Of a stretch of 64,000 bases of DNA, positions 10,674 to 64,000 are shown in pieces. The position numbers and the translations under genes are program-made. The stretch is taken from positions 2,048,001-2,112,000 of the forward strand of contig CBDCOX010000002.1 of assembly GCA_965219995.1 (NCBI GenBank), read 5' to 3'. Source of the DNA: Candidatus Latescibacterota bacterium. GTDB taxonomy: Bacteria; Latescibacterota; UBA2968; GCA-2709665. How positions within the stretch are numbered: the stretch's first letter is position 1; each line of letters opens with the position of its first letter. Below the pieces are notes generated by a model that saw nothing but the letters and a program-made list of their open reading frames with translations, searched no databases and was not told the DNA's origin.

Positions 10674-11984
10674 ATGGAGGAAAGGCAACGCAGGTTCTTG
10701 ATTGCAGGAATCCTGATCGGACTGTGCGCGATCGGCATGCTGGCACTGGGCGAAGCCCGGTACCGGATGCCGCTTTTTTTTGTGCTGTTCGGCCTCTGGA
10801 CGGGTTTCTACCTGGCGGCCGTATGGCATTGTACTGCCGCCGCACTCAAGACTGTCGTGCTGTTTGGCGTACTGTTCCGGGTCATCATGCTGTTTTCCCC
10901 GCCCGGTCTGTCCGATGACGTGTACAGATACCTGTGGGACGGGCGCGTCCAGGCCGCAGGGATAAACCCGTACGCCTACCCGCCGGCTTCGGAAGAACTC
11001 GCCGATCTCAGAGACGATACGGTGTTCCCCGAGGTAAACCATCCTCACGTGCCGACCATCTATCCGCCGCTGGCTCAGGCTTTGTTCAGGGTCTGCAATC
11101 TCGTCCATCCGTCGATCTGGACCGTAAAGGCGGTGCTGGTTCTCTTCGATTTGCTGACGGCATGGTTTCTGCTGGGTCTGATCCGGCTTTACGATCAGCA
11201 TCCGGGACAGTTGCTCATCTACCTCTGGCATCCCCTGCTGCTTGTCGAGGTGGCCGGCAACGCCCACGTCGACGCGATGGGCGTCTCGTTCATGGTACTT
11301 GCATTCCTGTATCTTCAAATCGGTGGGTACACGCGGGCTTTCGCCGCACTGGCCCTCTCCGTTCTGAGCAAGTTCTTTGCCATTTGCCTGGTTCCGGTCT
11401 TCTGGCGCTGGATCAGCGAAAGGATCTCCGAACGGTCCGAGAGGCGGCTGCCGGCAGCCCTTAGGCCGCAGGCCGTGGCGCCTGTACTGGTTTTCACCGC
11501 GCTGATAGCGGCCGGGTACATGCCCTTCCGGGAGGCAGGAGGAAATCTGTTCGCAGGCTTCCTGACCTATGCCGAACACTGGAGTTTCAACGCGCCGGTC
11601 TTTGGCATCCTGAGTTATCTGCTGGATAGCCCGCTTTGGGCTCGCATCGTCATCGCGGTCGGGTTTGGGGGGGCGGTTATTCTGTTCACGTTCAGCCGTA
11701 TGCCGCCGATTCAGGCGGGGTTCTTCCTTGTTGGGACCTTTCTGTTACTCACGCCGACGTTACACCCCTGGTATGCGATCTGGATCTTACCCTTCATGGT
11801 ATTTTACAGACAGCCGGCATGGCTGGTCTTTACCGGGCTTATCGCAATCTCGTATCACGTGCTGATAAAATACGCGAGCCAGGGAATATGGGAGGAGGCG
11901 GTCTGGGTGAAGTTCGTGTTATTCGGCGGATTTGCGCTTGTCTGGGGATTCGAACGGATTAAGCGGAGACGCGGTCACACTTGA
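10674..11984 (+). CDS. GT-C (GT87-like) polytopic membrane glycosyltransferase
   Basis: SDDVYRYLWDG, NPY, TIYPP, W.PL...E..GNAH.D, HPWY; many TM segments. Confidence 0.82.
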   Translation: MEERQRRFLIAGILIGLCAIGMLALGEARYRMPLFFVLFGLWTGFYLAAVWHCTAAALKTVVLFGVLFRVIMLFSPPGLSDDVYRYLWDGRVQAAGINPYAYPPASEELADLRDDTVFPEVNHPHVPTIYPPLAQALFRVCNLVHPSIWTVKAVLVLFDLLTAWFLLGLIRLYDQHPGQLLIYLWHPLLLVEVAGNAHVDAMGVSFMVLAFLYLQIGGYTRAFAALALSVLSKFFAICLVPVFWRWISERISERSERRLPAALRPQAVAPVLVFTALIAAGYMPFREAGGNLFAGFLTYAEHWSFNAPVFGILSYLLDSPLWARIVIAVGFGGAVILFTFSRMPPIQAGFFLVGTFLLLTPTLHPWYAIWILPFMVFYRQPAWLVFTGLIAISYHVLIKYASQGIWEEAVWVKFVLFGGFALVWGFERIKRRRGHT

Positions 11985-12102
11985 AACTCGTCGGAAGACG
12001 CCGTTCAGATTGGACGACGTTTCTTTGACATGGAGGTTTGGGACCCATTGGCAAGGTTCTTGAAAGCACCAACTGCCGGCCCGGTCGACTGACTGGAGCA
12101 GT

Positions 12103-15100
12103 CTAAACCGCCTTGCCGAAAAAGAGAGCAAACCGTACGAAGTCGGAAAATGCAACGAGCCCGTCGTCGTCCAGGTCGAACCGGGGATCGGATGAACCGA
12201 AGGCGCGGGCAAAGAGCAGAAAGTCAGAAAAATCAACCACGCCGCTTCTGTCGAAGTCCGCGACTGCCGCCGCAGGAAAGATGGTCTGATCGGCGGTAAA
12301 CATAATGTTTCTGTTACCGGAGGCAAGGGGCACACCTGACGAGTCGGCCGCCATGGAAAGGGTTATGGTGTAGGCGAGACCGGCTTCAAAGGGCATCGCA
12401 AACGTCAAGAGGGCACGTTGGCTCCCGCGGTCCAGGACCACTGAGGTCGGGCGTCCGAGGACCGGAGTAACCGAGTAGCCATGAGGATCGGCCGTTTCTG
12501 CGGCCATCGGTTCGCTGAACGTGAGAGAAAGCCTGCTGTCGCGCAGGACTTCGACGCGGTAAAGTTCCGGAGCCGGGTTGGGGCGAAGGGCGTGTGGCGC
12601 GGAGCGAATCTCGTCGCCACCGGGAAGCACGGCGACCACCACGTAACGGTAGACCCTGTTTTCGGCCAGGCCGGTATCCGTGTAGGTATTGGATTCCAGG
12701 TTATCCCTGATGACCGCAAGTGTGTTTCCGTCGACGCCGCGAAGGATTTTATAGGTGGCGCCGCCATCCGCAGGCGCCCATGTGAGCCTGGCGCTGTCGG
12801 CTCCCAGCGGATGGGCGTGCACAACTTGCAGGACCCTCGTGAAACCTGCCTCGGTACGTTCCATTATACGCACGGCGCCATCCCGGTTGTACAGAAGCTC
12901 GGCGTACCCATCCTTATCCAGATCCGCGATGAGCGGACGGGACGTCAATGAAACGGTCCCGTGCCAGAAGGGCTCGTATGTATTCGGGCCGATGGAGCGG
13001 ACCAGGTAAAGGTCCGGACGCAGACAGACCGCCAGGTCGGGTATGCCATTGCCGTCCACGTCGCCCGTTGCAATGCCGTTTCCCGTTGAAAGCACACCCG
13101 AAATCCGAATCGACCACTCCATCGCGTAGGAGGACGGCCCGTCCGTGCTGTAGATTTCCAGGGTCCAGAACCCGTTAAGCGCGTCGTTACGGTCTTCGGC
13201 AGCGCGGGCGACCGCGAATTCCACGTCACCGTCATCGTCAATATCCGCGCCTCCGCCGATCCATTGGGTGTTGGTGCTGTCACTTCCCGCCAGTTTCCAG
13301 GTCTGTACGAAGCCGCGCCCCTGCAGGGCTTCGTACATCCACAGGTCCCCGTCGTAGTCGCCCGAAAGAATCTCCTTCCTGCCGTTGTCGTTCAGATCCG
13401 CGATGACAAACCTGAGGCCGGGCAGGTTGAACCCCTCGGTGGGGTTCGCGAGCCGGGCGGTTTCCACGAATGCGCCTTCCGGCGTACTCCTCAGAATCAG
13501 GATGCCCCCCGCTTCAGCCGATCGGGTTACGATCTCGTTTCGGCCGTCGCCGTCGATATCGGCGATTTCTCCGCCCTCGACTTGCGTCAGATCCAGAAGG
13601 GTCTCGAATGGAAACGGCGTCCCTCCGATGAGCAGGAGATGCGGGAACCGCGTGCCGAGCAGGTCGGTACTGCCATCGTTGTTCGCGTCGCCCAATGCCC
13701 ATGGAAGGAATGCCTCGGCGGTCCGGAAGACGGTTGTAAAGCTTCCGTCGTCCCCACGTTCCATGATCAGGTTCGTGTTGTAGGGACGGCCGCGAGCGTA
13801 CGGCATCAGGACGATTTCGGGGCGCCCGTCCATATCGAAATCGGTGGCCTCACTGGCGAGGAACCCGTCGGGCAGCGTGCCGCGTTGAACAAATCCGCGG
13901 GACGGGATTCGCATCGGGTTGACCGCAACCGTCCCCGGTTCGGAAACCTCCACCTGTCCGGCGGCGTCCTGCGCCACAACGCGGTACTCCAGGGATCCGG
14001 GGTCGAGGTCCGGGGGCAGGGTGATGCGGTGGCGGGTGTAGACAATGTCCGAAAAGAGACTGTCTTCCCGCGCGGCTGCAGACGAGCGATAGAGCAGGGC
14101 GCCGCGTGTCGGAAATCTGGTGTGCCATTCGGCCTGGTAGGCCTGGCGGTTTCCAACGAGCATGGGTGAGATCGACGCACTCGATATAACGGGCGGAGCC
14201 CGCCGAATGCCGATTCGGACCCGATCTTCAAGGGTCGTGCCGTCGGTCATCCGAACCGTCAACCGCACGATGGCGGCGGCGCCGGCGTGGGTGCCCGGTG
14301 TCCATGAATGCCGGATGTCAGATCGCGGCGGTCCCCCGGTGAGTCGCACCCAGGATTGCGGATCCGTTCCCGGGCCCCAGGAGAGCTCGTAGCCGGCAAC
14401 GTCCGGACCGTCGGCCCGCCCGATGATATCCACGTTCCGCCGGACGCCGTCGTCCGTTTGAGGCCGGTCGATCCGTACGACGGGGGGATCGGGCCATCGG
14501 ATGAATTTTTCGAGCAATGTGCCGGCATCGACTCTGCCGGCGCCGTAGCTGCTGTCCCAACCCCCCGGTCCGAGATCGATCGCGGACGCGATGAGCAGCG
14601 AGCGAACCTGCTCGGCGGAAAGACCGGGACGGCGTGAGAGCAGAAGCGACGCCAGTCCGGAAATATGGGGCGCGGCGAAGGACGTGCCCGAGGCGCGCCG
14701 GTACCCGTTCCCCGGCATCGTTGTGATCGTGCCGGCCCCCGGCGCCACCAGATCCAGCGGTACGCCTGTGCTGCTGAACGCGGCAATGCGGTCCAGGGGC
14801 GCCGTGGCGCCCACGGCAATGGTCTCATCCATGGCCGCCGGGTAGGACAGGCCGGATCCGCCGGTGTTACCGGCGGAACTGACGAGAACAACGCCACTCG
14901 CAGCCGCGTAACGCACCACGTCCCGGATGAGCAATGCGCTTTCCGGCCCCCCCCAGCTCATATTGAGGATATGGGCGCCGTTTTCCACGGCATAGAGTAT
15001 GGCGGCGGCCAGGTCGTCTTCCTCCAGAAAGGTGAAATCGGACTGCAGCGTCACGCCGGCGCGGAGGGACATCAGCGCAGCGTCGGGGGCGACGCCGGCA

Positions 15101-15837
15101 ATGCCCACGCCGTTGTCCGCCACCGCCGCGGCGATGCCCGCTACGCGGGTGCCGTGGCTGGACTCGTCCATGGGATCGTTGTCGGGCGAAAGGTAGTCAC
15201 CCTTCGCCGGAAGCGTCGGGGTGTGGGTGAAGTCCCATCCGCGTATGTCGTCCACGTACCCGTTGTTGTCGTCGTCAACACCCGGCCTGCCGGATGCTTC
15301 GACAGTGTTGATCCAGATATTTTCAGCCAGATCTTCGTGGGTATAGTCCACGCCGGAATCGATGATGGCGATGACGACGCCCTGTTCGGCCGGCGGAAGG
15401 CCGTCCAGCAGGATCTGCCATCTGATCTGGTTCAGGCCGTACTGATCGCTCAGGCGGGGATCGTCGGGCACATCGTGGTGTGAAAACAGGTGAACCGGCT
15501 GCGCGTATTGGACACCGGCGTGCTCCGAATAGGCGGCCGCGGCTTCCACGGGACTCGCTTCCTCGTCTATTTCGAGTCGGTACACCTGCGAGAATCCACT
15601 CGCCCGTTTGGAAAGGACCGTGGTTGGCTTGAAAACCGGTTCGGGGGTGCCGGCGCCAAAACGCGCGTGCAGGGTCTCGAGACTTCCGGCAGCTGTTTTG
15701 GAGGCCGACGTCTTGAACTTGATGAGAATCTGTCCGGGAGAGTGAGCAGGTTGAGCAACGACGGAACGGAAAGCCAGCAAAGATACCAGAAGTTGAAATG
15801 TGACGGATATCGCGCGTGTCCGGTTGATATGGCTCAA
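12103..15837 (-). CDS. Secreted S8 subtilisin-like protease with FG-GAP/VCBS repeats, FN3, Ig-like domain and C-terminal double EF-hand dockerin-like domain
   Basis: Signal peptide; triad IIDSG, HGTRVAG, GTSFAAP; repeated D.D.DG..E/D motifs; C-terminus ADFDRSGVVDFSDFLLFARAFG...FDLDDDGLVAFSDFVRFALFFGK. Confidence 0.9.
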   Translation of the reverse strand: MSHINRTRAISVTFQLLVSLLAFRSVVAQPAHSPGQILIKFKTSASKTAAGSLETLHARFGAGTPEPVFKPTTVLSKRASGFSQVYRLEIDEEASPVEAAAAYSEHAGVQYAQPVHLFSHHDVPDDPRLSDQYGLNQIRWQILLDGLPPAEQGVVIAIIDSGVDYTHEDLAENIWINTVEASGRPGVDDDNNGYVDDIRGWDFTHTPTLPAKGDYLSPDNDPMDESSHGTRVAGIAAAVADNGVGIAGVAPDAALMSLRAGVTLQSDFTFLEEDDLAAAILYAVENGAHILNMSWGGPESALLIRDVVRYAAASGVVLVSSAGNTGGSGLSYPAAMDETIAVGATAPLDRIAAFSSTGVPLDLVAPGAGTITTMPGNGYRRASGTSFAAPHISGLASLLLSRRPGLSAEQVRSLLIASAIDLGPGGWDSSYGAGRVDAGTLLEKFIRWPDPPVVRIDRPQTDDGVRRNVDIIGRADGPDVAGYELSWGPGTDPQSWVRLTGGPPRSDIRHSWTPGTHAGAAAIVRLTVRMTDGTTLEDRVRIGIRRAPPVISSASISPMLVGNRQAYQAEWHTRFPTRGALLYRSSAAAREDSLFSDIVYTRHRITLPPDLDPGSLEYRVVAQDAAGQVEVSEPGTVAVNPMRIPSRGFVQRGTLPDGFLASEATDFDMDGRPEIVLMPYARGRPYNTNLIMERGDDGSFTTVFRTAEAFLPWALGDANNDGSTDLLGTRFPHLLLIGGTPFPFETLLDLTQVEGGEIADIDGDGRNEIVTRSAEAGGILILRSTPEGAFVETARLANPTEGFNLPGLRFVIADLNDNGRKEILSGDYDGDLWMYEALQGRGFVQTWKLAGSDSTNTQWIGGGADIDDDGDVEFAVARAAEDRNDALNGFWTLEIYSTDGPSSYAMEWSIRISGVLSTGNGIATGDVDGNGIPDLAVCLRPDLYLVRSIGPNTYEPFWHGTVSLTSRPLIADLDKDGYAELLYNRDGAVRIMERTEAGFTRVLQVVHAHPLGADSARLTWAPADGGATYKILRGVDGNTLAVIRDNLESNTYTDTGLAENRVYRYVVVAVLPGGDEIRSAPHALRPNPAPELYRVEVLRDSRLSLTFSEPMAAETADPHGYSVTPVLGRPTSVVLDRGSQRALLTFAMPFEAGLAYTITLSMAADSSGVPLASGNRNIMFTADQTIFPAAAVADFDRSGVVDFSDFLLFARAFGSSDPRFDLDDDGLVAFSDFVRFALFFGKAV

Positions 15838-57429: not shown

Positions 57430-58632
57430 ATGGACCGTGACGACGTGCGGCAGAGACTGGAAAAACTGGAAGGCAAACTACGCTGGCAGAAACGGGCGAT
57501 TGCAGGATTGCTGATTGTATTCCTCTTTAGCGCGTCCCCGGCGTTGACCCGGGCGTCGAAATGGTTCGGGAGCATGCTCCCGCCAAAGCTGGCCTCGCTG
57601 AGCCTTCAACACGGTACGACAACCGGCGACGTGCGGTTTGGCGATCTCTCGCCCAACCGGGCCGACCTCCCGTTGCCGGAGGCCGGTAACGCCGTACCTG
57701 GCAAAATCGCTCCGGAGCAGATCATCGATGCAGGCGACACCTTGCGGGTCGGTACCCTTCACGTCGTCAATGCGAGCGGGGAGGTCGTTGCAGCCCTCGG
57801 GTCGGACGAGGCGGGAGACGGTTCGCTGGTGATCACGAACAGAAACGGTTCGGTGGTTTCCGTTGTGGGCGTTGACGCAAACGGACACGGAACCCTGGGG
57901 GTCCTCAACGCGGCGGGTCGGGTCGCGGCCGCCATGGGCGCCGACCCGTCGGAACAGGCAAATGGATGGGTCGACGCCAGGAGCGCGACGGGTTCCGCGG
58001 CCGCACTCGCCTTCGATAGCGCCGGAGACGGCACTGTGCTGGTGTTCAGCTCGGATGACAAGCTGGTCGCCGGATTCGGAGTGGACGAAAACGGCAACGG
58101 CGCCCTTCGCATCTCGAATGCGGCCGGCGGGATCGTTGCCGCGATCGGCGCGGACGAGACGGAAGACGCCAATGGATGGATGGACGTCAGGAACAAGTCC
58201 GGACCGGCGGCGGGCTTCTCCGTTGACCGCGACGGAGACGGCCTGGCAATCGTGGGAAATCGGGACAACAAGGCCATTGGGATACTGGGCGCGAATGAGA
58301 ATGGACACGGTCTCATCGGATTCATGAATGCGTCCGAGCGGGTTGTGGCCGGCATGGGCGCCGATTCGACCGGCATTGGGGGAATGAGCATCGAAGGGGG
58401 CAGATTCAGGGCCTTTGTCGACGGGAACGCCAACGGCGTGGCGGAAACCCGGGGCAACGACCGGGAGGTTCGCTGGTCCTCGGAAGCGGCCCCCGCAGGG
58501 GACGGCGACGACGACGGTGACAGTGACACCGGCACGACGAGCGGCCTGATCGGGGATTTCGACGGGGACGGCGACGTGGATTTCAACGACTTCCTCACCT
58601 TCGCCCGGAATTTCGGCAAAACCAGCGGGTAG
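57430..58632 (+). CDS. Membrane-anchored beta-repeat protein (~10 x 22-25 aa) with C-terminal single EF-hand/half-dockerin
   Basis: N-terminal coiled coil RLEKLE plus hydrophobic segment; repeats like VVAALGSDEAGDGSLVITNRNGS; ends GDFDGDGDVDFNDFLTFARNFGK; GGAGG RBS. Confidence 0.8.
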   Translation: MDRDDVRQRLEKLEGKLRWQKRAIAGLLIVFLFSASPALTRASKWFGSMLPPKLASLSLQHGTTTGDVRFGDLSPNRADLPLPEAGNAVPGKIAPEQIIDAGDTLRVGTLHVVNASGEVVAALGSDEAGDGSLVITNRNGSVVSVVGVDANGHGTLGVLNAAGRVAAAMGADPSEQANGWVDARSATGSAAALAFDSAGDGTVLVFSSDDKLVAGFGVDENGNGALRISNAAGGIVAAIGADETEDANGWMDVRNKSGPAAGFSVDRDGDGLAIVGNRDNKAIGILGANENGHGLIGFMNASERVVAGMGADSTGIGGMSIEGGRFRAFVDGNANGVAETRGNDREVRWSSEAAPAGDGDDDGDSDTGTTSGLIGDFDGDGDVDFNDFLTFARNFGKTSG

Positions 58633-58642
58633 CGGAACGCGA

Positions 58643-58669
58643 TTTGACAAGCTCACTTCGACGGGCTCG
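58643..58669 (+). repeat. Degenerate REP-like motifs (TTTGACAAGCTCA / CTTCGACGGGCTC)
   Basis: Similar to the CTTCGACAAGCT motif at 60445-60456. Confidence 0.4.
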
Positions 58670-58798
58670 CAGCCAGACCGCGCCCCTTGCCAAGGGGATG
58701 GCCGGCGTAACGTCAACTACCTCGTGAATTCAGATGTTCCGATACGCGGCCGCGGTGTTACCAACCAAGGATCGGTTCGACACAAAGGAGTCTTACCA

Positions 58799-60286
58799 AT
58801 GCTCTCGTACAATGCCCTGGTGTTGACTATTGCCATCATCGTCGGCGTGTTTGCCGGAACGGAGAACGCTTCGGCAGCCGAGGAAGACCATTCCGCAACT
58901 TCGGCCGACGGCCGTAATCTGCCGCCCGTGCTTGGCGACGTGGGTAGAAATGGCGCCTACGGATACTCGCAATCAGTTGGATCGGGCATTTCCTTCTCTT
59001 CCAGCAAGACATTGGCTGAGGAAAAGATGGAAGAAGGACTTGCGGAATTCCGTTCCGGCAAGGACGTTGTCTGGCTTTATTACCGCGCGGAGGCCAGCGA
59101 CCCGGACGGGGACGAAGTGCGGTATATCTGGTCTCAGGTATCTTCTGAAGAGCCGGCTGCGATCATAGAACAGGATGATTCCTTCGTTCCCAGCGGACAG
59201 GGGGTCGACGTGAAAGTCTGCACGCCGCCCTCAGGAGCCGAAATCACACTTCAAGTCGTAGCCATGGACAAGAACGGCGCAATAAGCGAACCCAGGACGG
59301 TCGTCGTGAACGCCGCCGGATGCGCATCGGAAGCGCGCTGGGTGCGGTTGTCAAGATTTGCCCGGTTGCGCCAGGCCGCCAATCAGGGAGACCATAAATC
59401 TCAAAGAGACCTGGCGTTAGCATATATCAACGGCGACGGTGTATTCAAGAATAAGAAAAAAGGAACGCAACTCATGCAAACGCATGCCCAGGCCGGAAAT
59501 GCCGAAGCGCAGGCTCAATGGGCCTATTTTCTCGACACGGGAAAGCATCGGATTAAAAAAGATAAAGAGGAAGCGCTCAAGTGGTATCGTGCCGCGGCTC
59601 AGCAGGGTCACGCCCATGCGCAATATGCCGTGGGATTCTACGAGAAGGACAAGCGAGAGGCACTGAGGTGGTACAAATTGGCGGCCGAACAGAACAACAC
59701 CTCTGCCCAGTTCAACCTGGCGAAGATGCTGGCTGAGGGTGACGGCGTACCGAAGGATCTGGCTGTGGCGAAGGAATGGATGAAAAAATCGGCGGATCTG
59801 GGGCACAAACGCGCCAGAACCTGGATTGATAACTGGGAGGCGGCTACGGCATTCGATGCATCCGGAAACAGGCCTCCGCAATTGATTTCGGTAACGTATG
59901 CGGGAGATCATAGACCGACTTCGGTTTCCTATTCCGCCAACAAGATGACGTATAAAGACGGAAAGCTGGTCACTGAGGGTGGTCAGACAAGCGTCAACAC
60001 AATTGTCTGGCGTAAAGTAAACGTCCGTGCTGAAGATTTCGATGGTGAGGCGATTCGATATCTCGTCACACAAAAATCTCCAGTTACTCCTGAAGTCACA
60101 ATTGGCGGCCAGCGAAACGTATTCAAATATCATGCCTCCGGCAAGGAGGTTATGTTTGCCATGTGCTTTCCGGATATTTCGGGCGGAGAATTCACGTTTC
60201 AAGTGATCGCGGAGGATAAACGTGGAGGAAAAAGCGCTCCGAAGACCATCGTGCTTGAGGCCATCAGGTCGGACAAATGCCAGTGA
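58799..60286 (+). CDS. Secreted Sel1-like repeat protein flanked by duplicated Ig/PKD-like domains
   Basis: Signal peptide; Sel1 repeats (A..WY..AA.QG...AQ..LA.....G.GV.KD); N- and C-terminal domains share N.PP.L, A.D.DG..RY, QV.A.DK.G..S.P.T; AAAGGAG RBS. Confidence 0.85.
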   Translation: MLSYNALVLTIAIIVGVFAGTENASAAEEDHSATSADGRNLPPVLGDVGRNGAYGYSQSVGSGISFSSSKTLAEEKMEEGLAEFRSGKDVVWLYYRAEASDPDGDEVRYIWSQVSSEEPAAIIEQDDSFVPSGQGVDVKVCTPPSGAEITLQVVAMDKNGAISEPRTVVVNAAGCASEARWVRLSRFARLRQAANQGDHKSQRDLALAYINGDGVFKNKKKGTQLMQTHAQAGNAEAQAQWAYFLDTGKHRIKKDKEEALKWYRAAAQQGHAHAQYAVGFYEKDKREALRWYKLAAEQNNTSAQFNLAKMLAEGDGVPKDLAVAKEWMKKSADLGHKRARTWIDNWEAATAFDASGNRPPQLISVTYAGDHRPTSVSYSANKMTYKDGKLVTEGGQTSVNTIVWRKVNVRAEDFDGEAIRYLVTQKSPVTPEVTIGGQRNVFKYHASGKEVMFAMCFPDISGGEFTFQVIAEDKRGGKSAPKTIVLEAIRSDKCQ

Positions 60287-60375
60287 GCTTGCACACGAGA
60301 AATGCATTGGTTCATTAATGCTTGTTATTGCAGAAAGCACTCTACAGTTTACAAAATCACACACCATTGACCTGG

Positions 60376-60474
60376 CACCCTGAGCCGCGCCCTGAGCTTG
60401 TCGAAGGGTCGGCGAAGGGTCAAAAAGGCACCGAAACGGGGGCGCTTCGACAAGCTTAGCGTCCCCGTTCGTGC
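60376..60474. repeat. REP-like palindromic cluster (CCCTGAGCTTGTCGAAGGG and complementary CTTCGACAAGCTTAG)
   Basis: Nested CCCTGAGC...CGAAGGG units at 60376-60421 and hairpin AACGGGGGCGCT...AGCGTCCCCGTT at 60435-60469. Confidence 0.65.
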
Positions 60475-60832
60475 AAGTCCCTTTCCACGTCTTGGCAGGA
60501 GCTTAAGACGTCACCTATTTACTGCTGCTGGTGATAATTGTCGGTTCCTATGACGAGCGAAGTCTTCTGCTGCCGGGCGATTTCCCGTGGACTTTTGATA
60601 CACTCGATCTCAGAGATGCTGTCGTTGCTCTGGATTTGAGAGAGAATACGTTCCATCTTTCCTTTGAATAGCTCACGTGGCACGTGCCAAAGAGACCAGT
60701 GAATGACATTGAAATCACGACTTACCTGCCAACACAAACCATGCCAAGGAGTGAAGTAAATAATCGCCTGGCGTGCAGACTACGTATGTATATCGATGCC
60801 CATGTCGACATATACAATCCCGGAGGGAATAA

Positions 60833-61966
60833 ATGAATCCACTTGAAGAAAGACTGAGTCGATTGGAGACGCGCGTAACGTGGTATCGCAATTTCAACGT
60901 CCTGCTGTGTCTCCTGCTGATAGCGGTCGTTACGGTAGCCGCAAAAGAGGGCGTATCGCCGTTTCAGACAAAAACAGTGACGGAAACCACAGCAATGGCC
61001 CAAGGCGAATACGGTGTGCAGGAATCGCCTGACAGAAACGTGCCAGAGTTGCTGTATCCGGATGAGACCTTCGCTGGCAAGGTTCCCGCGCAGGTTGAAG
61101 GGACGATTCGAACGAGGCGATTGGAGATTGTGAATGGGGATGGACAGACGGTTATCTTGCTGGCGACCAGTACCGACGGTGACGGCCTGATCTTCGTGAA
61201 TTCACCAGAGGACAATAACCTCGTCTATATCGGACCGTCAGCCTTGAACGGCAATGGCTTGGTGCATATCAACTCAGCACAAGGCAAGAACCTTATAGGT
61301 CTCGGATCAAATCCCGAGACGAATGATGGATTTATCCATATTAGAAACAGGAATGAAGAGGGTTTAATAAGTCTACAGACCGGTCAAAGCAACGGTTGGA
61401 TAAGAGTCGACAAGACCGGAAATGAAAATCTGGCGTATCTGGGCGCGAACACTTCGGGGCACGGTTTCTTAAGTCTGAGCAACAAATCGGGAAAAGGCCT
61501 GGTGGCAATGTTCGCCGATGAGACGTCTGGTGGCCTGGAACTGTCCAACAAGGACGATAAGAGGATTGCATTTCTGGGGACCGACATCGGTGGGGAAGGT
61601 TTATTGAAAATCAACTCAAAAACGGGTACGGAACTCATTACGGCAGGATCAAACGTCGAAGATAATGGACTGTTCAGGGTAAGCAATCGCTATGGCACCC
61701 TCGGGTTTTTCGTCATTGGTTCTGACGCACATGGCTATGCGGCAATTCAGGATAACCAGGAGAGGTTGCTTGCAGATCTGACGGCGACTGCATCCGGCAA
61801 CGGGCTTGTTCGCACGTTGTCCAGGCAGGGTATCACGACGTGGTCCAGCGCATCTGTTCAAGGCACCACAGTTTCAACGTCCTTGAGGGGTGATATGGAC
61901 GACGATGGCGACATTGATGGGGATGATTTCCTTATCTTTTCCGAAAACTTCGGCAAGAAAAAGTAA
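60833..61966 (+). CDS. Membrane-anchored beta-repeat protein, paralog of 57430-58632, with C-terminal half-dockerin
   Basis: LEERLSRLE coiled coil plus TM; TIRTRRLEIVN; ~10 repeats like NLAYLGANTSGHGFLSLSNKSGK; ends GDMDDDGDIDGDDFLIFSENFGK; GGAGGG RBS. Confidence 0.82.
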   Translation: MNPLEERLSRLETRVTWYRNFNVLLCLLLIAVVTVAAKEGVSPFQTKTVTETTAMAQGEYGVQESPDRNVPELLYPDETFAGKVPAQVEGTIRTRRLEIVNGDGQTVILLATSTDGDGLIFVNSPEDNNLVYIGPSALNGNGLVHINSAQGKNLIGLGSNPETNDGFIHIRNRNEEGLISLQTGQSNGWIRVDKTGNENLAYLGANTSGHGFLSLSNKSGKGLVAMFADETSGGLELSNKDDKRIAFLGTDIGGEGLLKINSKTGTELITAGSNVEDNGLFRVSNRYGTLGFFVIGSDAHGYAAIQDNQERLLADLTATASGNGLVRTLSRQGITTWSSASVQGTTVSTSLRGDMDDDGDIDGDDFLIFSENFGKKK

Positions 61967-61969
61967 GCC

Positions 61970-64000
61970 ATGATTCTCTTGTCAAGATCTCCCGGAAGCC
62001 GTTTTGTGATCCCTGCGTTCGTCTTGCTTTATTACGGCGGCTTGGCTTATGGATCGCCACCGATTGAGTACGTCAAGGAACACCACCCGCCGAAGCTGGA
62101 AGGCGTGCTGGCACGGATTCGAAAACACTGGACGGCACAAAAGCGGGCGCTGGCCAAGGCGACGGCGAGACAATATGGGGCTGCAAAAATCGTTGGTGAA
62201 AACATCACTGTCGTATTGGTGCCTCGCCATGGGAGACTTTCAGTTAGCATAGATTTCGCGGCTCTTTCCGACATCGGCGTTAGCATTGTCGCCCAATCGC
62301 GGCATCTATTGAAGGTGTCTACACCCATAGCAGCACTCGAGAGTTTGACACATGTGGACGGCGTTCAATTCGTGCGGTTGCCCATAGAACCCAACTTACG
62401 CATCGTTGAAAGCGAGGGCGTGGAACGCATCGGAGCGCAATTTTACTTAAGTGAGGGATTTTCGGGTCGGGAAGTCAAAGTCGGGGTTATCGATGTCGGT
62501 TTTGTCGGGGTACCTTCACTGCAGAATCGCGGCGAATTGCCGGCTTTGTCTTATCGGGATTTCACTGGCGAAGGGATTTTTACCGAAACAGAGCATGGAT
62601 CGGCCTGTGCTGAAATTGTATACGACATTGCTCCAAACGCTGAAATTGTCCTATATAAGGTGAGCGGCATGGTGAGTTTGGAGAACGCTAAGGATGCTGC
62701 AATCCAGGACGGCATGGATATTGTCACTGTTTCTTTGGGATGGGATTTCGCAAGGGGTTTTGGTGACGGTACAGGTATTGCGTGCGAAATTGTAGATGAC
62801 GCGTTTCAGAATAATGTTCTGTGGGTCAATGCTGCCGGAAACGAGGCACAGAGCAAGATCATTGCAGAATTAAACCCGGATGGCGATGGATTTCACAACT
62901 TTGATGCAGACGACCGGATCGTCAAATTAAAAAATCGTCAAACAGGTGATTTGTATTTGTCAACAGGAGATAAAGTAACAGCGGTGTTGACATGGAACGA
63001 ATGGCCGCTTACGTCTCACGACTACGATCTTCTGCTCGCAAAGATCAGGACAGACGGCACATCCGAGGTAGTTGCACTCGCAGACACCAAACAACGTCAG
63101 TCAGAGCCCTTCGAAGGTCTTGAATATGAGATTCGAGACTCGGGAACCTACGGTTTGGCGATTTGGAGGGCACCGGACGCGAAAGTTACCGAGTTCAAGT
63201 TGCTCAGCACAACCCATGATCTCGACGGGCCTGTATCCACTTCGGGCTCATTGAGTATACCGGGCGACGCGCGGGGCGCGCTGACCGTGGGGGCGATGCA
63301 TCACCGGGAATGGAGGACAGGACCGATTGCGGCGTACAGTTCTCGCGGTCCAACTGTTGATGGACGAACCAAGCCGGACCTCGTTGGTCCTGCTGGCGTT
63401 CTCACGATAAGCTATGGAGAATCAGGATACCACGGTACATCAGCGGCGACGCCGCACGTAGCCGGGGCCGCGGCGCTCCTGAAATCCTCCGATCCGGTGC
63501 ACTATAACGCCCAGAATCTATATGACGCGCTGGTGCAATCGACGGTCGATATGGGAGATCGGGGCCCCGATAACGTCTATGGCCACGGGCGATTGGATCT
63601 GTCGTTGGTTCCTCCCATTGGCAAGCCCGCTATGGAACTTTCACGTGACGTGCTGGATTTCGGCGCGGTTCTGTTGGGGTCGTCGCACACCCGGAACCTG
63701 AATATTGTCAACCCCGGTCGTGCGTCTCTTGTGATCACAAATATCCAGTTGCCGACCAGTGAGTACCGCATCTCAGAACCGACCTTTACCGTCGCGCCAG
63801 GGCGCAGCAATCGGATTGCCGTCACGTTTTCGCCCCAAAGCGAGGGTGATCAGTCTGGCAGCATGACCATTCTGAGCAATTTGCCACGGACCACCGTAAC
63901 GCTCCGGGCGCGAGGCGTGCGGCAAGCCGTTGTTCCGGTTCCTCGGATTGCGGTCGATGGGTCAGCGCGCAGTTTTGGCGTTGTCGACGTCGGCGGTTCG
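61970..64000 (+). CDS. Secreted S8 protease with C-terminal ASH/choice-of-anchor-D-like Ig domains, 3'-truncated by the window edge
   Basis: My translation from ATG 61970 stays open to the window end: VGVIDVG, EHGSACAE, NAAGN, YSSRGP...KPD, GTSAATPHVAG, then LDFG.V.......I.N.G...L.I. Confidence 0.88.
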   Translation, partial: MILLSRSPGSRFVIPAFVLLYYGGLAYGSPPIEYVKEHHPPKLEGVLARIRKHWTAQKRALAKATARQYGAAKIVGENITVVLVPRHGRLSVSIDFAALSDIGVSIVAQSRHLLKVSTPIAALESLTHVDGVQFVRLPIEPNLRIVESEGVERIGAQFYLSEGFSGREVKVGVIDVGFVGVPSLQNRGELPALSYRDFTGEGIFTETEHGSACAEIVYDIAPNAEIVLYKVSGMVSLENAKDAAIQDGMDIVTVSLGWDFARGFGDGTGIACEIVDDAFQNNVLWVNAAGNEAQSKIIAELNPDGDGFHNFDADDRIVKLKNRQTGDLYLSTGDKVTAVLTWNEWPLTSHDYDLLLAKIRTDGTSEVVALADTKQRQSEPFEGLEYEIRDSGTYGLAIWRAPDAKVTEFKLLSTTHDLDGPVSTSGSLSIPGDARGALTVGAMHHREWRTGPIAAYSSRGPTVDGRTKPDLVGPAGVLTISYGESGYHGTSAATPHVAGAAALLKSSDPVHYNAQNLYDALVQSTVDMGDRGPDNVYGHGRLDLSLVPPIGKPAMELSRDVLDFGAVLLGSSHTRNLNIVNPGRASLVITNIQLPTSEYRISEPTFTVAPGRSNRIAVTFSPQSEGDQSGSMTILSNLPRTTVTLRARGVRQAVVPVPRIAVDGSARSFGVVDVGGS

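What the first reader, a model, noticed from the sequence alone, without database searches (positions are those of the whole stretch)
57430..64000. Candidate surface-display system: paralogous beta-repeat 'fibre' proteins with half-dockerin tails plus a coupled S8 protease and a Sel1 protein
Seen: two divergent paralogs (57430-58632, 60833-61966) share one architecture: short coiled coil (RLEKLE/RLSRLE), one hydrophobic anchor, Pro-containing linker, TLRV..LHVVN/TIRT..LEIVN motif, ~10 beta-hairpin-like repeats of 22-25 aa, WSS, a low-complexity linker, and ONE EF-hand motif (GD.D.DGD.D..DFL.F..NFGK). The second paralog stops 3 nt before the ATG of an S8 protease carrying Ig/ASH-like domains, and a Sel1 protein sits between the paralogs. 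Established: dockerins normally have two such Ca-binding repeats and bind cohesins. Inference: these could be oligomeric (for example trimeric, fibre-like) beta-sheet proteins whose single EF-hands pair in trans to rebuild a docking module, forming a non-cellulosomal adhesin/protease complex.
Basis: partly seen in the sequence, partly recalled or inferred. Interest (0 to 1): 0.8.

Follow-up and report, generated by a model that had tools for sequence, protein, structure and literature searches.

The report
Membrane-tethered beta-ribbon proteins with half-dockerin tails
Two related membrane-anchored proteins are built as a long ribbon of beta-hairpins ending in half of a calcium-binding docking module, and one is always encoded next to a secreted protease carrying the likely matching socket, which suggests a tethering system outside cellulose-degrading bacteria.

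Summary
A (57430-58632) and B (60833-61966) are real paralogs. Each has an N-terminal helix (coiled-coil segment plus membrane anchor), a disordered linker, 11 beta-hairpin units of about 23 residues, a WSS motif, and exactly one dockerin-type Ca-loop plus helix at the C-terminus.

They belong to a large family with no Pfam or NCBIfam model. The single-repeat tail is an add-on in a clade labelled Gemmatimonadota/Latescibacterota: 231 of 241 listed relatives carry one repeat and none carries two.

The AlphaFold2 monomer model of B (pLDDT 92-97 over the repeats) is a 22-strand hairpin meander. Its best structural matches are engineered OspA single-layer sheets and MORN-repeat proteins, not phage fibres.

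B is adjacent to the S8 protease in all 6 copies in 5 genomes. The Sel1 gene lies nearby in only 2 of 5. The full-length protease ends in a divergent cohesin-like module plus a normal two-repeat dockerin, so a candidate socket lies in the next gene.

Best reading: B is a membrane-tethered stalk whose half-dockerin plugs into the protease's cohesin-like module. The Ruminococcus flavefaciens group-2 truncated dockerins are an experimental precedent. Binding, oligomeric state and cellular location are untested. I rate it a new variant of a known kind.

The parts
57430..58632 (+). Paralog A, 400 aa: anchored beta-hairpin-repeat protein with an A-type single dockerin repeat
   Evidence: ORF. A profile built only from tail-less relatives hits it at E 1.8e-37. 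136 relatives found.
57454..57549 (+). A: cytoplasmic RLEKLE heptad segment (57454-57471) running into the hydrophobic anchor (57493-57549)
   Evidence: Weak XhlA match, E 7.7e-5, below the curated cut-off. L and E of the LE motif are invariant in 73 aligned sequences.
57739..58482 (+). A: beta-hairpin repeat domain, from the first strand TLRVGTLHVVN to WSS, 11 units
58546..58620 (+). A: single dockerin repeat LIGDFDGDGDVDFNDFLTFARNFGK, followed by TSG and the stop
   Evidence: Dockerin_1 E 0.04 (profile positions 2-23 of 57) and EF-hand_1 E 0.013, both below cut-off. Aligned to the dockerin of P0440.
58724..60286 (+). Sel1-repeat protein with a hydrophobic N-terminus and flanking PKD-like regions. 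It is a neighbour, not a conserved part of the module.
   Evidence: Pfam Sel1 E 2.8e-26. PDB Sel1 proteins E 4e-39. Found next to B only in the window and L001.
60833..61966 (+). Paralog B, 377 aa: anchored beta-hairpin-repeat protein with a B-type single dockerin repeat
   Evidence: ORF. 131 relatives. Tail-less profile E 6e-56. AF2 model mean pLDDT 81.3, 92-97 over residues 90-340.
60851..60943 (+). B: RLSRLE heptad segment (60851-60868) and hydrophobic anchor (60893-60943). The model shows one continuous helix, residues 3-38.
61103..61849 (+). B: beta-hairpin repeat domain, 11 hairpins / 22 strands, from TIRTRRLEIVN to WSS
   Evidence: Foldseek best matches are engineered OspA (E 1.3e-8) and MORN-repeat proteins.
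61883..61957 (+). B: single dockerin repeat LRGDMDDDGDIDGDDFLIFSENFGK. The model shows a helix at residues 363-372.
   Evidence: This is the most conserved part of the protein: mean column identity 0.96.
61970..64000 (+). S8 subtilase, cut by the window end. The full protein is 952 aa (P0440): signal/propeptide, S8 domain with an insert, two choice-of-anchor-D Ig domains, a cohesin-like module and a two-repeat dockerin.
   Evidence: Catalytic D/H/N/S motifs at 62483-62500, 62591-62611, 62825-62842 and 63434-63454, kept in 100 of 100 orthologs. The cohesin-like module and the dockerin lie beyond the window end.

Best explanation
A and B are bitopic envelope proteins. Each has a short cytoplasmic heptad segment continuous with one transmembrane helix, then a flexible linker of about 50 residues. 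Next comes a ribbon of 11 beta-hairpins, an antiparallel meander of the OspA single-layer-sheet / MORN kind, roughly 10 nm long if flat (my estimate from 22 strands at 4.8 A each). A short flexible linker then leads to one dockerin repeat: a Ca-binding loop plus one helix.

B is co-transcribed, and probably translationally coupled, with a secreted and catalytically intact S8 protease. The C-terminus of that protease is a cohesin-like module followed by a normal two-repeat dockerin.

Proposed mechanism (inferred): the B ribbon is the cell-bound stalk. Its half-dockerin docks in a Ca-dependent way onto the protease's cohesin-like module. One or two tails may bind per module, as shown for the truncated group-2 dockerins of Ruminococcus flavefaciens. 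This tethers the protease to the envelope. The protease's own dockerin stays free to bind other proteins that carry the same cohesin-like + dockerin cassette (LRR, YWTD/NHL propeller and CARDB proteins).

A has different residues at the predicted recognition positions and would anchor a different client.

Shown here: the architecture, the fold class of the monomer, the single-repeat nature of the tail, the gene linkage, and the domain content of the protease.
Inferred: the binding, its stoichiometry, and the cellular location.
For: Tail is one dockerin repeat:
- The B-family profile hits only the dockerin 2y3n_B in the PDB and aligns to each of its two repeats (E 1.9e-5; E 4.7e-7 with A4).
- BLASTP of the B tail against both repeats of the neighbouring protease's dockerin gives 42% and 48% identity.
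- Ca ligands at positions 1, 3, 5, 9 and 12 are all Asp.

Always single:
- 117 of 120 B-list and 114 of 121 A-list proteins have one copy. None of the 241 has two. The proteins with no copy that I inspected were truncated.
- Among the 150 best family representatives, 34 have one copy, 116 have none and 0 have two.

Selection on the tail:
- Mean column identity is 0.96 for the tail, 0.75 for the repeats and 0.67 for the linker.
- In 117 B tails, positions 10, 11 and 18 (G, D, E) are invariant. Position 17 is S in 115 and position 22 is K in 111.

Linkage:
- B is followed by S8 in the window and in L001-L004, 6 of 6 B copies. There are 3 nt between the stop and the ATG in 4 of 6 junctions, 6-15 nt in L001 and about 392 nt in L002.
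- 44 contig lengths are shared between 119 B hits and 108 protease hits, 11 of them under 20 kb. This is only a proxy for co-residence.

Socket:
- The full-length protease has a 142-residue module before its dockerin.
- Its profile's best PDB hit is a cohesin, 4uyp_A, E 0.067.
- Pfam Cohesin matches 4 of 9 such modules, best E 3e-6. In whole-protein context it scores 23.0 bits against a cut-off of 24.1.
- The module is as conserved as the catalytic domain, 0.84 against 0.85.
- The protease's dockerin aligns over 56 residues to 2y3n_B, E 3.5e-6.

Stalk:
- AF2 gives pLDDT 92-97 over 22 strands.
- Foldseek matches engineered OspA at E 1.3e-8 (best TM 0.47/0.49 for 2fkj_A) and MORN-repeat proteins.
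- A sequence profile of tail-less relatives hits OspA hairpin-repeat chains at E 3e-9.

Precedent:
- Single-loop dockerins bind a cohesin, two per cohesin, in an arrangement that mimics a full dockerin. Truncated halves of BcDocCel48 and CtDocCel48S still bind (PMC12270676: abstract and sections 4, 6 and 11 read).
- One enzyme can carry both a cohesin and a dockerin, and dockerins occur on membrane proteins (PMC4611034, passages).
Against: - No binding test was possible.
- The cohesin-like assignment is below curated thresholds. The protease-type modules themselves give no Pfam Cohesin hit. Their fold was not modelled.
- The protease's own dockerin lies only a few residues after the cohesin-like module and could occupy it in cis.
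- The tail lacks the extra C-terminal helix of the R. flavefaciens group-2 dockerins. The protein ends 5 residues after the single helix.
- Most of the wider family, 116 of 150 representatives, has no tail, so the core function of the ribbon does not depend on docking.
- The organism appears diderm: an LPS heptosyltransferase gene in the window and an OMP beta-barrel gene in L002. A protein anchored in the inner membrane and a secreted protease would therefore meet only in the periplasm.
- A has no protease directly downstream.
- In L002 the B-S8 spacer is about 392 nt.
Confidence: 0.45

Rival explanations
1. Oligomeric fibre with in-trans dockerin. B forms a dimer or trimer through its N-terminal heptad/TM helix and the faces of the ribbon. 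Only the paired tails form a functional docking module or a Ca-dependent tip.
For: - Both faces of each hairpin carry hydrophobic positions: 2, 3, 5, 13, 14 and 16 of the unit, measured on 454 units.
- The N-terminal LE heptad motif is invariant across 73 sequences.
- Two truncated dockerins do pair on one cohesin in the crystal structure of RfDoc2-CohScaE (PMC12270676, section 6).
- Some OspA-based hairpin-repeat constructs with hydrophobic ladders dimerise (PMC9523718, passage).
- Four of the 9 long relatives (over 600 aa) scanned weakly match the N-domain of Bdellovibrio trimeric MAT fibres: E 1.9e-6 to 8.5e-3, all below the cut-off of 60 bits.
Against: - The monomer model is confident without a partner.
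- The best structural matches are OspA variants, Rhs/teneurin shells and MORN proteins, not trimeric fibres. The first phage S74 protein ranks 44th, with TM 0.12.
- A and B themselves do not match the MAT N-domain.
- The heptad segment has only about two heptads.
Confidence: 0.2
2. Substrate or regulator pair. The protease acts on B, for example by cutting the disordered linker to shed the ribbon, or B holds, inhibits or chaperones the protease. In this reading the tail is not a docking device for the cohesin-like module.
For: - Strict gene coupling.
- A disordered linker of 47 residues (pLDDT about 30) lies between anchor and ribbon. It contains an invariant Lys, K83 of B, in 49 of 49 aligned sequences.
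- The protease is catalytically intact in 100 of 100 orthologs.
Against: - This does not explain why the tail is the most conserved part, or why it is a dockerin repeat of the same kind as the protease's own.
- The protease has its own N-terminal region upstream of the catalytic domain (residues 1-135), so it needs no external chaperone on the face of it.
Confidence: 0.15
3. The tail is only a Ca-binding cap or stabiliser of the ribbon end, or it binds a non-protein ligand. The adjacency to a dockerin-bearing protease reflects shared regulation of envelope proteins.
For: - The motif also matches generic EF-hand models at similar weak scores.
- EF-hand proteins fill the lower ranks of the PDB search.
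- The tail is separated from the ribbon by a low-confidence linker, residues 343-350.
Against: - A separate flexible tail is poorly placed to cap the sheet.
- Non-ligand positions on the helix are invariant: F13, L14, F16, E18 and F20 in all 117 B tails, and S17 in 115 of 117. That suggests a protein interface.
- The best solved match is a dockerin, not an EF-hand protein.
Confidence: 0.1

Closest known systems
Group-2 truncated dockerins of Ruminococcus flavefaciens (RfDoc2 bound to CohScaE; PMC12270676)
   Same: Natural dockerins with a single Ca-binding loop and one cohesin-binding helix. They direct their carrier to a cell-bound partner. Two copies can sit antiparallel on one cohesin and mimic a full dockerin.
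   Different: - Those are 5 sequences in a Firmicute cellulosome and have an extra C-terminal helix. Here the protein ends 5 residues after the single helix.
- Here the half-dockerin is on the membrane-anchored partner and the cohesin-like module is on the enzyme, which reverses the polarity.
- Hundreds of members in another phylum, with no link to cellulose degradation.
- Binding has not been shown here.
Canonical type I dockerin (for example Bacteroides cellulosolvens Cel48 dockerin, PDB 2y3n_B)
   Same: Same loop-helix repeat: Asp ligands at positions 1, 3, 5, 9 and 12, followed by a helix ending in FGK. It is the best and only significant PDB sequence match.
   Different: One repeat instead of two. 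Below the Pfam Dockerin_1 threshold.
Enzymes and adaptor scaffoldins with one cohesin plus one dockerin (Ruminococcus bromii Amy4, PMC4611034; 'monovalent adaptor scaffoldins', PMC11557425)
   Same: The S8 protease and many LRR, propeller and CARDB proteins here carry one cohesin-like module directly followed by a dockerin. Such an arrangement allows chaining or self-association.
   Different: The module is a divergent, sub-threshold cohesin relative. The cassette is compact (about 200 residues), portable to either end of a protein, and sits on non-glycosidase proteins of a diderm phylum.
OspA central single-layer beta-sheet and its engineered hairpin-repeat variants (PSAMs); MORN-repeat proteins
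   Same: Hairpin units of 23 residues with an N-x-x-G type turn, forming a long antiparallel meander. These are the top Foldseek hits and a profile hit at E 3e-9.
   Different: - No OspA globular end domains.
- No Pfam MORN match at E up to 1.
- TM-scores are only 0.3-0.5.
- The resemblance is in fold class and does not show homology.
Bdellovibrio mosaic adhesive trimer (MAT) fibres (PMC10769870)
   Same: Same design logic: a constant cell-proximal N-terminus, a repetitive beta stalk and an exchangeable C-terminal tip. Long relatives of this family weakly match the MAT N-domain.
   Different: A and B lack that N-domain and have a TM helix instead. Trimerisation is not shown, and the stalk fold differs from the MAT beta-helix/prism.

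Membership tests
Dockerin type I (Pfam PF00404) | Ca-binding loop with acidic ligands at positions 1, 3, 5, 9, 12, followed by a helix | tested here: met
   D at positions 1, 3, 5, 9 and 12 in 117 of 117 B tails. In 114 A tails, D at positions 1, 9 and 12 in all, D/N at 3 and 5. Helix at residues 363-372 in the model. Aligned to both repeats of 2y3n_B.
Dockerin type I (Pfam PF00404) | Two tandem loop-helix repeats | tested here: not met
   0 of 241 listed A/B relatives and 0 of 150 representatives have two copies. By contrast, 99 of 108 neighbouring-type proteases have two.
Dockerin type I (Pfam PF00404) | Score at or above the Pfam gathering cut-off | tested here: not met
   A tail alone scores 14.6 bits against 22.9. 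B tail gives no hit.
Dockerin type I (Pfam PF00404) | Binds a cohesin | not testable with these tools
A bench test is needed.
Naturally truncated (group-2 type) dockerin | Single Ca loop plus one cohesin-binding helix at a protein terminus | tested here: met
   Definition taken from PMC12270676, section 6.
Naturally truncated (group-2 type) dockerin | Additional C-terminal helix (helix 4 of group-4/group-2 dockerins) | tested here: not met
   B ends at residue 377 and the only tail helix is 363-372.
Cohesin (Pfam PF00963), for the 142-residue module of the S8 protease | Sequence match to cohesin models or solved cohesins | tested here: inconclusive
   The profile's best PDB hit is cohesin 4uyp_A, E 0.067 over 92 of 142 positions. 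Pfam Cohesin matches 4 of 9 modules, best E 3e-6, but none of the protease-type ones. Score of 23.0 bits against a cut-off of 24.1 in P0512. The protease module is 42% identical over 204 residues (with the dockerin) to the module of P0515.
Cohesin (Pfam PF00963), for the 142-residue module of the S8 protease | Nine-stranded jelly-roll fold | not tested
Peptidase S8 (subtilase) | Asp-His-Ser triad and oxyanion Asn in S8 order | tested here: met
   Pfam E 1.4e-24. D163, H197, N279 and S479 of P0440 are kept in 100 of 100 orthologs.
Sel1 repeat protein | Tandem Sel1 repeats | tested here: met
   4 repeats, E 2.8e-26. PDB Sel1 proteins E 4e-39.
MORN repeat (Pfam PF02493) | Sequence match to the MORN model | tested here: not met
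   No MORN hit for A or B at E up to 1. The similarity is at fold level only.
Phage tail fibre / spike proteins | Sequence or fold relationship to phage fibre families | tested here: not met
   PHROGs: none for A or B. tblastn against 50,697 phage records: none. Top BFVD hits are MORN-repeat proteins of giant viruses; the first S74 phage protein ranks 44th with TM 0.12.
Bdellovibrio MAT fibre family (NCBIfam NF053851 N-domain) | Conserved MAT N-terminal domain | tested here: not met
   Not among the NCBIfam hits of A or B at E up to 1. Only long relatives match, and below the cut-off.

The most novel reading that the evidence does not exclude
A phylum-wide, non-cellulosomal cohesin-dockerin network with reversed polarity. 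Membrane-tethered beta-ribbon stalks form a new family, a natural counterpart of the OspA single-layer sheet. They carry minimal one-repeat dockerins in at least two specificity classes. These capture secreted enzymes and repeat proteins (S8 proteases, LRR, YWTD/NHL, CARDB) through a compact cohesin-like + dockerin cassette. The cassette can also chain its carriers together. This would be the second natural group of functional single-repeat dockerins, by far the largest, and the first outside Firmicute cellulosomes.
Probability: 0.3. Interest if true: 0.75.

Novelty: new variant of a known kind. Interest (0 to 1): 0.6.

Why it matters
The authors of the 2025 structure state that the five R. 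flavefaciens group-2 dockerins are the only known functional natural truncated dockerins (PMC12270676, section 11). A family with hundreds of strictly single-repeat tails would matter in four ways.

- It would show that minimal dockerins are a recurrent natural solution. These tails are under stronger conservation than the rest of the protein and sit in an unrelated diderm lineage.
- It would supply new, very short (about 25-residue) Ca-dependent tags and matching sockets for protein engineering.
- It would extend cohesin-dockerin assembly from polysaccharide degradation to proteases and repeat proteins.
- Separately, the anchored hairpin-ribbon family has no Pfam or NCBIfam model (653 cluster representatives at E up to 1e-10). 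It appears to be a natural long single-layer beta-sheet, which is of interest for beta-sheet folding and design.

My literature searches listed no paper that links dockerins with Gemmatimonadota, Latescibacteria or Poribacteria:
- 2 papers, unrelated by title and abstract;
- 0 papers;
- none of the 15 listed of 374.

Tried and rejected
Tools that gave no result:
- Complex prediction of the B tail with the cohesin-like module was asked for once.
It accepted one job (B, alignment A4).
- The protein Atlas held none of the five sequences tried.
Length, curvature and tail packing could not be measured.

Analyses that were inconclusive:
- Covariation on 984 consecutive hairpin pairs (Neff 224) supports hairpin closure: positions 6-12 score 0.232. 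Inter-hairpin signals (maximum 0.174) were no higher than the k+2 and k+3 controls (0.147-0.174). This analysis therefore says nothing about sheet versus solenoid.
- A FastTree of 64 anchored members with the tail removed needs 7 changes of tail state, against a shuffled mean of 15 (0 of 500 shuffles as low). At least two of the tail-less rows inside the tailed clades are truncated sequences, so the count is inflated.

Readings rejected:
- Phage or plasmid origin: tblastn found nothing.
- Anti-phage defence system: PADLOC gave nothing for A, B or Sel1 and only generic subtilase hits for S8.
- Lipoprotein signal in B: the conserved Cys26 has only about five hydrophobic residues before it and no lipobox (read from the sequence).
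- RNA elements: no Rfam or tRNA hits in the window.
- Promoter scan: 0 sites found.

Limits on data:
- Cluster look-up of 10 distant relatives returned no informative names, only 'hypothetical protein'.
Gene neighbourhoods of the tail-less relatives and of most A-type genes stayed unchecked.

Full report
**What is there**

The last 6.6 kb of the window hold four genes on the + strand:
- A (57430-58632, 400 aa)
- a Sel1-repeat protein (58724-60286)
- B (60833-61966, 377 aa)
- an S8 subtilase that runs off the window (61970-64000)

A and B align over their whole length: 25% identity, E 4e-17.
- an N-terminal R-L-x-x-L-E heptad segment running into one hydrophobic segment;
- a linker with prolines;
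- a first-strand motif (TLRVGTLHVVN in A, TIRTRRLEIVN in B);
- 11 units of 22-26 residues;
- WSS;
- a short low-complexity linker;
- one EF-hand-like motif 10-12 residues from the stop.

The repeats are more than chance. An HMM built from nine B units scores 15.2 bits on A, while the best of 300 shuffles scored 7.5. Neither protein reaches any Pfam or NCBIfam cut-off. B stops at TAA and the protease ATG follows after GCC.

**The family**

Word-indexed searches found 131 relatives of B and 136 of A. Almost all are unnamed. The few names given are 'hypothetical protein' from MAGs labelled Gemmatimonadota. Several contig lengths recur for different paralogs, which suggests several copies per genome.

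A profile of both subfamilies, run against 1.84 billion cluster representatives, found 5169 proteins at E up to 1e-3, 653 at 1e-10 and 56 at 1e-30. Many of these match only the repeat part. Of 51 I scanned, 48 have no Pfam family.

The shorter relatives keep the same N-terminal heptad plus anchor and the same first-strand motif, but have no tail. A profile built only from 38 such tail-less proteins matches the B family with hhalign probability 100%, E 5.8e-42 over 326 columns. The same profile hits window B at E 6e-56 and A at E 1.8e-37, and nothing else in the window.

Among the 150 best representatives, 116 have no EF-hand motif, 34 have one and none has two. The core of the family is therefore anchor plus hairpin ribbon, and the tail is a clade-specific addition.

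On a quick tree made without the tail columns, tail-bearing rows cluster: 7 changes against a shuffled mean of 15, with 0 of 500 shuffles as low. At least two 'tail-less' rows inside the tailed clades are truncated sequences.

Some relatives of 1,000-1,800 residues put the same repeats between two other domains. The N-terminal one weakly resembles the N-domain of the Bdellovibrio MAT fibres (E 1.9e-6 at best, below cut-off). The C-terminal one matches PHROG families of unknown function.

**The fold**

Structure prediction became available late, for one job only. AlphaFold2 on a 73-sequence alignment gave mean pLDDT 81.3 and pTM 0.61. The model has these parts:
- one helix, residues 3-38 (heptad segment continuous with the anchor);
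- a disordered stretch, 39-85;
- 22 strands in 11 hairpins between 96 and 338, with pLDDT 92-97;
- a disordered 343-350;
- a helix at 363-372 in the tail.

Foldseek against the PDB puts engineered OspA hairpin-repeat proteins first. 3cka_A has E 1.3e-8, and 2fkj_A has TM 0.47/0.49 over 247 columns. Rhs, teneurin and Tc-type shells follow, and native OspA is lower down. Against predicted viral structures, the hits are MORN-repeat proteins of giant viruses. The first phage S74 protein is at rank 44 with TM 0.12.

Independently, the sequence profile of the tail-less relatives hits the OspA hairpin-repeat chains at E 3e-9. Those chains have a 23-residue unit that aligns with the family's unit.

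The unit consensus, from 454 units, is G-h-h-x-h-x-N/S-x-x-G-K-x-h-h-x-h-G-A/S-N/D-x-x-G (h = hydrophobic). Hydrophobic residues fall on both faces of the hairpin.

Covariation supports closure of the hairpin (positions 6-12). It was at noise level for contacts between hairpins.

The fold class is therefore an extended antiparallel meander, like the OspA single-layer sheet. TM-scores are modest and I claim no homology.

**The tail**

The B-family profile has one significant match in the PDB, the dockerin of Bacteroides cellulosolvens Cel48 (2y3n_B). It aligns to each of that dockerin's two repeats (E 1.9e-5; E 4.7e-7 with the wider alignment).

Against Pfam, the A tail alone gives Dockerin_1 at E 0.04 (first half of the model only) and EF-hand models at similar values. 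The B tail gives nothing.

The tail is the best-conserved part of the B family: mean column identity 0.96, against 0.87 for the N-terminus, 0.75 for the repeats and 0.67 for the linker.

In 117 of 120 B-list proteins there is exactly one copy. D1, D3, D5, D7, D9, G10, D11, D12, F13, L14, F16, E18, F20 and G21 are invariant, S17 is present in 115 and K22 in 111. In 114 of 121 A-list proteins there is one copy, with F10, N/A/S at 11, T/A at 17 and S/A/R at 18. No protein has two.

Positions 10, 11, 17, 18 and 22 are the ones named as cohesin-recognition positions in PMC4582956 (passage). The two subfamilies therefore look like two specificity classes. That is an inference.

**The protease and the socket**

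One scan of species-representative genomes returned four true loci: three MAGs labelled Latescibacterota/Latescibacteria and one labelled Gemmatimonadota. It also returned two tail-only hits in other phyla.

In all four true loci, B is followed by the ortholog of the S8 gene. L004 has a tandem duplicate of the pair, with one protease copy split into two ORFs. The junctions are:
- TAA GCC ATG in the window;
- TGA GCG ATG, twice, in L004;
- TGA GTG ATG in L003;
- 6-15 nt in L001;
- about 392 nt in L002.

A and the Sel1 gene are present only in L001, which is syntenic with the window. The other neighbourhoods differ.

As a proxy for linkage in unnamed contigs, 44 contig lengths are shared between 119 B hits and 108 protease hits. 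Eleven of them are below 20 kb.

The full-length protease is P0440, 952 aa, which the database holds for the window's own genome. With its orthologs it consists of:
- an S8 domain with an insert;
- two choice-of-anchor-D / ASH Ig domains;
- a 142-residue module;
- a two-repeat dockerin, aligned over 56-57 residues to 2y3n_B (E 3.5e-6 and 1.6e-5).

The catalytic residues are kept in 100 of 100 orthologs.

The 142-residue module plus dockerin is a portable cassette. 676 proteins match it at E up to 1e-3. In LRR/internalin-like, YWTD/NHL-propeller, CARDB and FGE-domain proteins it sits right after the signal peptide.

A profile of nine such modules has a cohesin (4uyp_A) as its best PDB hit, E 0.067. 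Pfam Cohesin matches 4 of the 9, best E 3e-6, but not the protease-type ones. In whole-protein context it reaches 23.0 bits against a cut-off of 24.1. The protease-type module is clearly homologous to the others: 42% identity over 204 residues including the dockerin, E 2e-41. It is as conserved as the catalytic domain (0.84 against 0.85).

I therefore call it cohesin-like. The fold is still to be confirmed.

No cohesin-like module lies inside the window itself, because the window ends before that part of the protease.

**How it most likely works**

Published work shows four relevant things:
- Dockerins with a single Ca loop are functional.
- Two of them can occupy one cohesin antiparallel and mimic a full dockerin.
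- Isolated halves of BcDocCel48 and CtDocCel48S can keep wild-type affinity (PMC12270676).
- An enzyme can carry both a cohesin and a dockerin, and its cohesin can bind several dockerins including its own (PMC4611034).

On this basis, the best-supported reading is that B is a membrane-tethered stalk whose half-dockerin docks onto the cohesin-like module of the co-expressed protease. The protease's own dockerin would link it to other cassette proteins. The NCBIfam name 'choice-of-anchor D' for the protease's Ig domains marks domains that precede alternative anchoring devices (the family's name; the meaning is recalled). That fits the cassette being the protease's anchor.

I put this reading at 0.45.

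The weak points are:
- binding is untested;
- the cohesin call is below threshold;
- the protease's own dockerin may occupy the socket in cis;
- topology. The window has an LPS heptosyltransferase gene and L002 has an OMP beta-barrel gene, so the cell is probably diderm. An inner-membrane anchor would then keep the ribbon in the periplasm, unless the hydrophobic segment is a cleaved signal. Small residues at VAA|K in B and TRA|S in A make cleavage conceivable. No tool was at hand to test this.

**Rivals**

Both hairpin faces are hydrophobic, and the LE heptad motif is invariant. But the monomer folds confidently alone and resembles monomeric or dimeric sheet proteins rather than trimeric fibres. 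I give it 0.2.

A protease-substrate or regulator relation would use the disordered linker with its invariant Lys. It does not explain the conservation of the tail. I give it 0.15.

A purely structural Ca cap gets 0.1.

**Novelty**

Cohesin-dockerin assembly, enzymes carrying both modules, and truncated dockerins are all known. Three things are new here:
- an unmodelled, widespread family of anchored hairpin ribbons;
- a large clade of it with a strictly single, minimal dockerin repeat;
- the fixed pairing of one subfamily with a protease that carries a compact cohesin-like + dockerin cassette, in a lineage where my searches listed no paper on dockerins.

I file it as a new variant of a known kind, with interest 0.6.

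Noticed in passing
window 12103-15837 (-): A second subtilase of 1244 aa: Peptidase_S8 (E 7.3e-55), FG-GAP repeats and a C-terminal two-repeat dockerin with a short inter-repeat linker. It has no cohesin-like module. Dockerin-tagged proteases are therefore a theme in this genome.
   Followed up: partly
window 58724-64000; L001-L004 B and S8 genes: Sel1, B and S8 have lower G+C (0.50-0.57) than their flanks (0.54-0.61) in all five genomes, whereas A is at 0.64. This may reflect amino-acid composition (B is rich in Asn, Ser, Lys and Ile) or an old transfer of the module.
   Followed up: partly
L001 9887-10132 (+): An 82-codon open frame that overlaps the end of the Sel1 gene and the spacer. It encodes a relic A-type C-terminus (RWSSE...GDTGTSTGL...DGDGDVDFNDFLTFTANFGKTSG). 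A further family gene seems to have decayed there.
   Followed up: partly
L004 9935-19048: Tandem duplication of the B-S8 pair. The first protease copy is split into two ORFs (11132-12391 and 13022-14671) and so is possibly inactivated.
   Followed up: no
proteins P0506-P0517 (unnamed contigs); L002 1069-2625 (-) and 15651-17432 (-): The cohesin-like + dockerin cassette, or the dockerin alone, sits directly after the signal peptide of LRR/internalin-like, YWTD (LDL-receptor class B), NHL, CARDB and FGE-sulfatase-type proteins. Many of these are repeat families better known from eukaryotes.
   Followed up: partly
proteins P0253, P0262, P0264, P0271, P0281: Relatives of 686-1816 aa use the same hairpin repeats as a stalk. 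In P0253, P0262, P0264 and P0281 the N-terminal domain weakly resembles the Bdellovibrio MAT N-domain. In P0253, P0262, P0264 and P0271 the C-terminal domain matches phrog_17490 and phrog_28536, both of unknown function.
   Followed up: partly
window 61079-61081 (Lys83 of B); equivalent Lys in A: A Lys in a small G/S-K motif, 8-20 residues before the first strand in the otherwise variable disordered linker, is invariant in 49 of 49 aligned A/B-family sequences. Its role is unknown; it could be a cleavage or attachment site.
   Followed up: no
window 60908-60910 (Cys26 of B): A Cys inside the membrane helix is conserved in at least 90% of 61 B-family sequences and is absent from A.
   Followed up: no
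window 60287-60832: A 546-nt spacer between Sel1 and B with G+C 0.495. It has no ORF of 80 codons on the + strand, no Rfam hit and no promoter-consensus match. B has a GGAGG 7 nt before its ATG.
   Followed up: partly
L005 (Pirellulales MAG) and L006 (delta-proteobacterial MAG): Unrelated proteins in these loci end in similar loop-helix motifs. L006 has a single one flanked by Cys residues, and other ORFs have double ones. Short dockerin-like tails also occur in other phyla and other protein contexts.
   Followed up: no
window 61970 versus 62006: The database version of the protease (P0440) starts at the GTG at 62006. The ATG at 61970 adds an 11-residue n-region with two Arg, which makes a more typical signal peptide and gives the 3-nt coupling to B.
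   Followed up: partly
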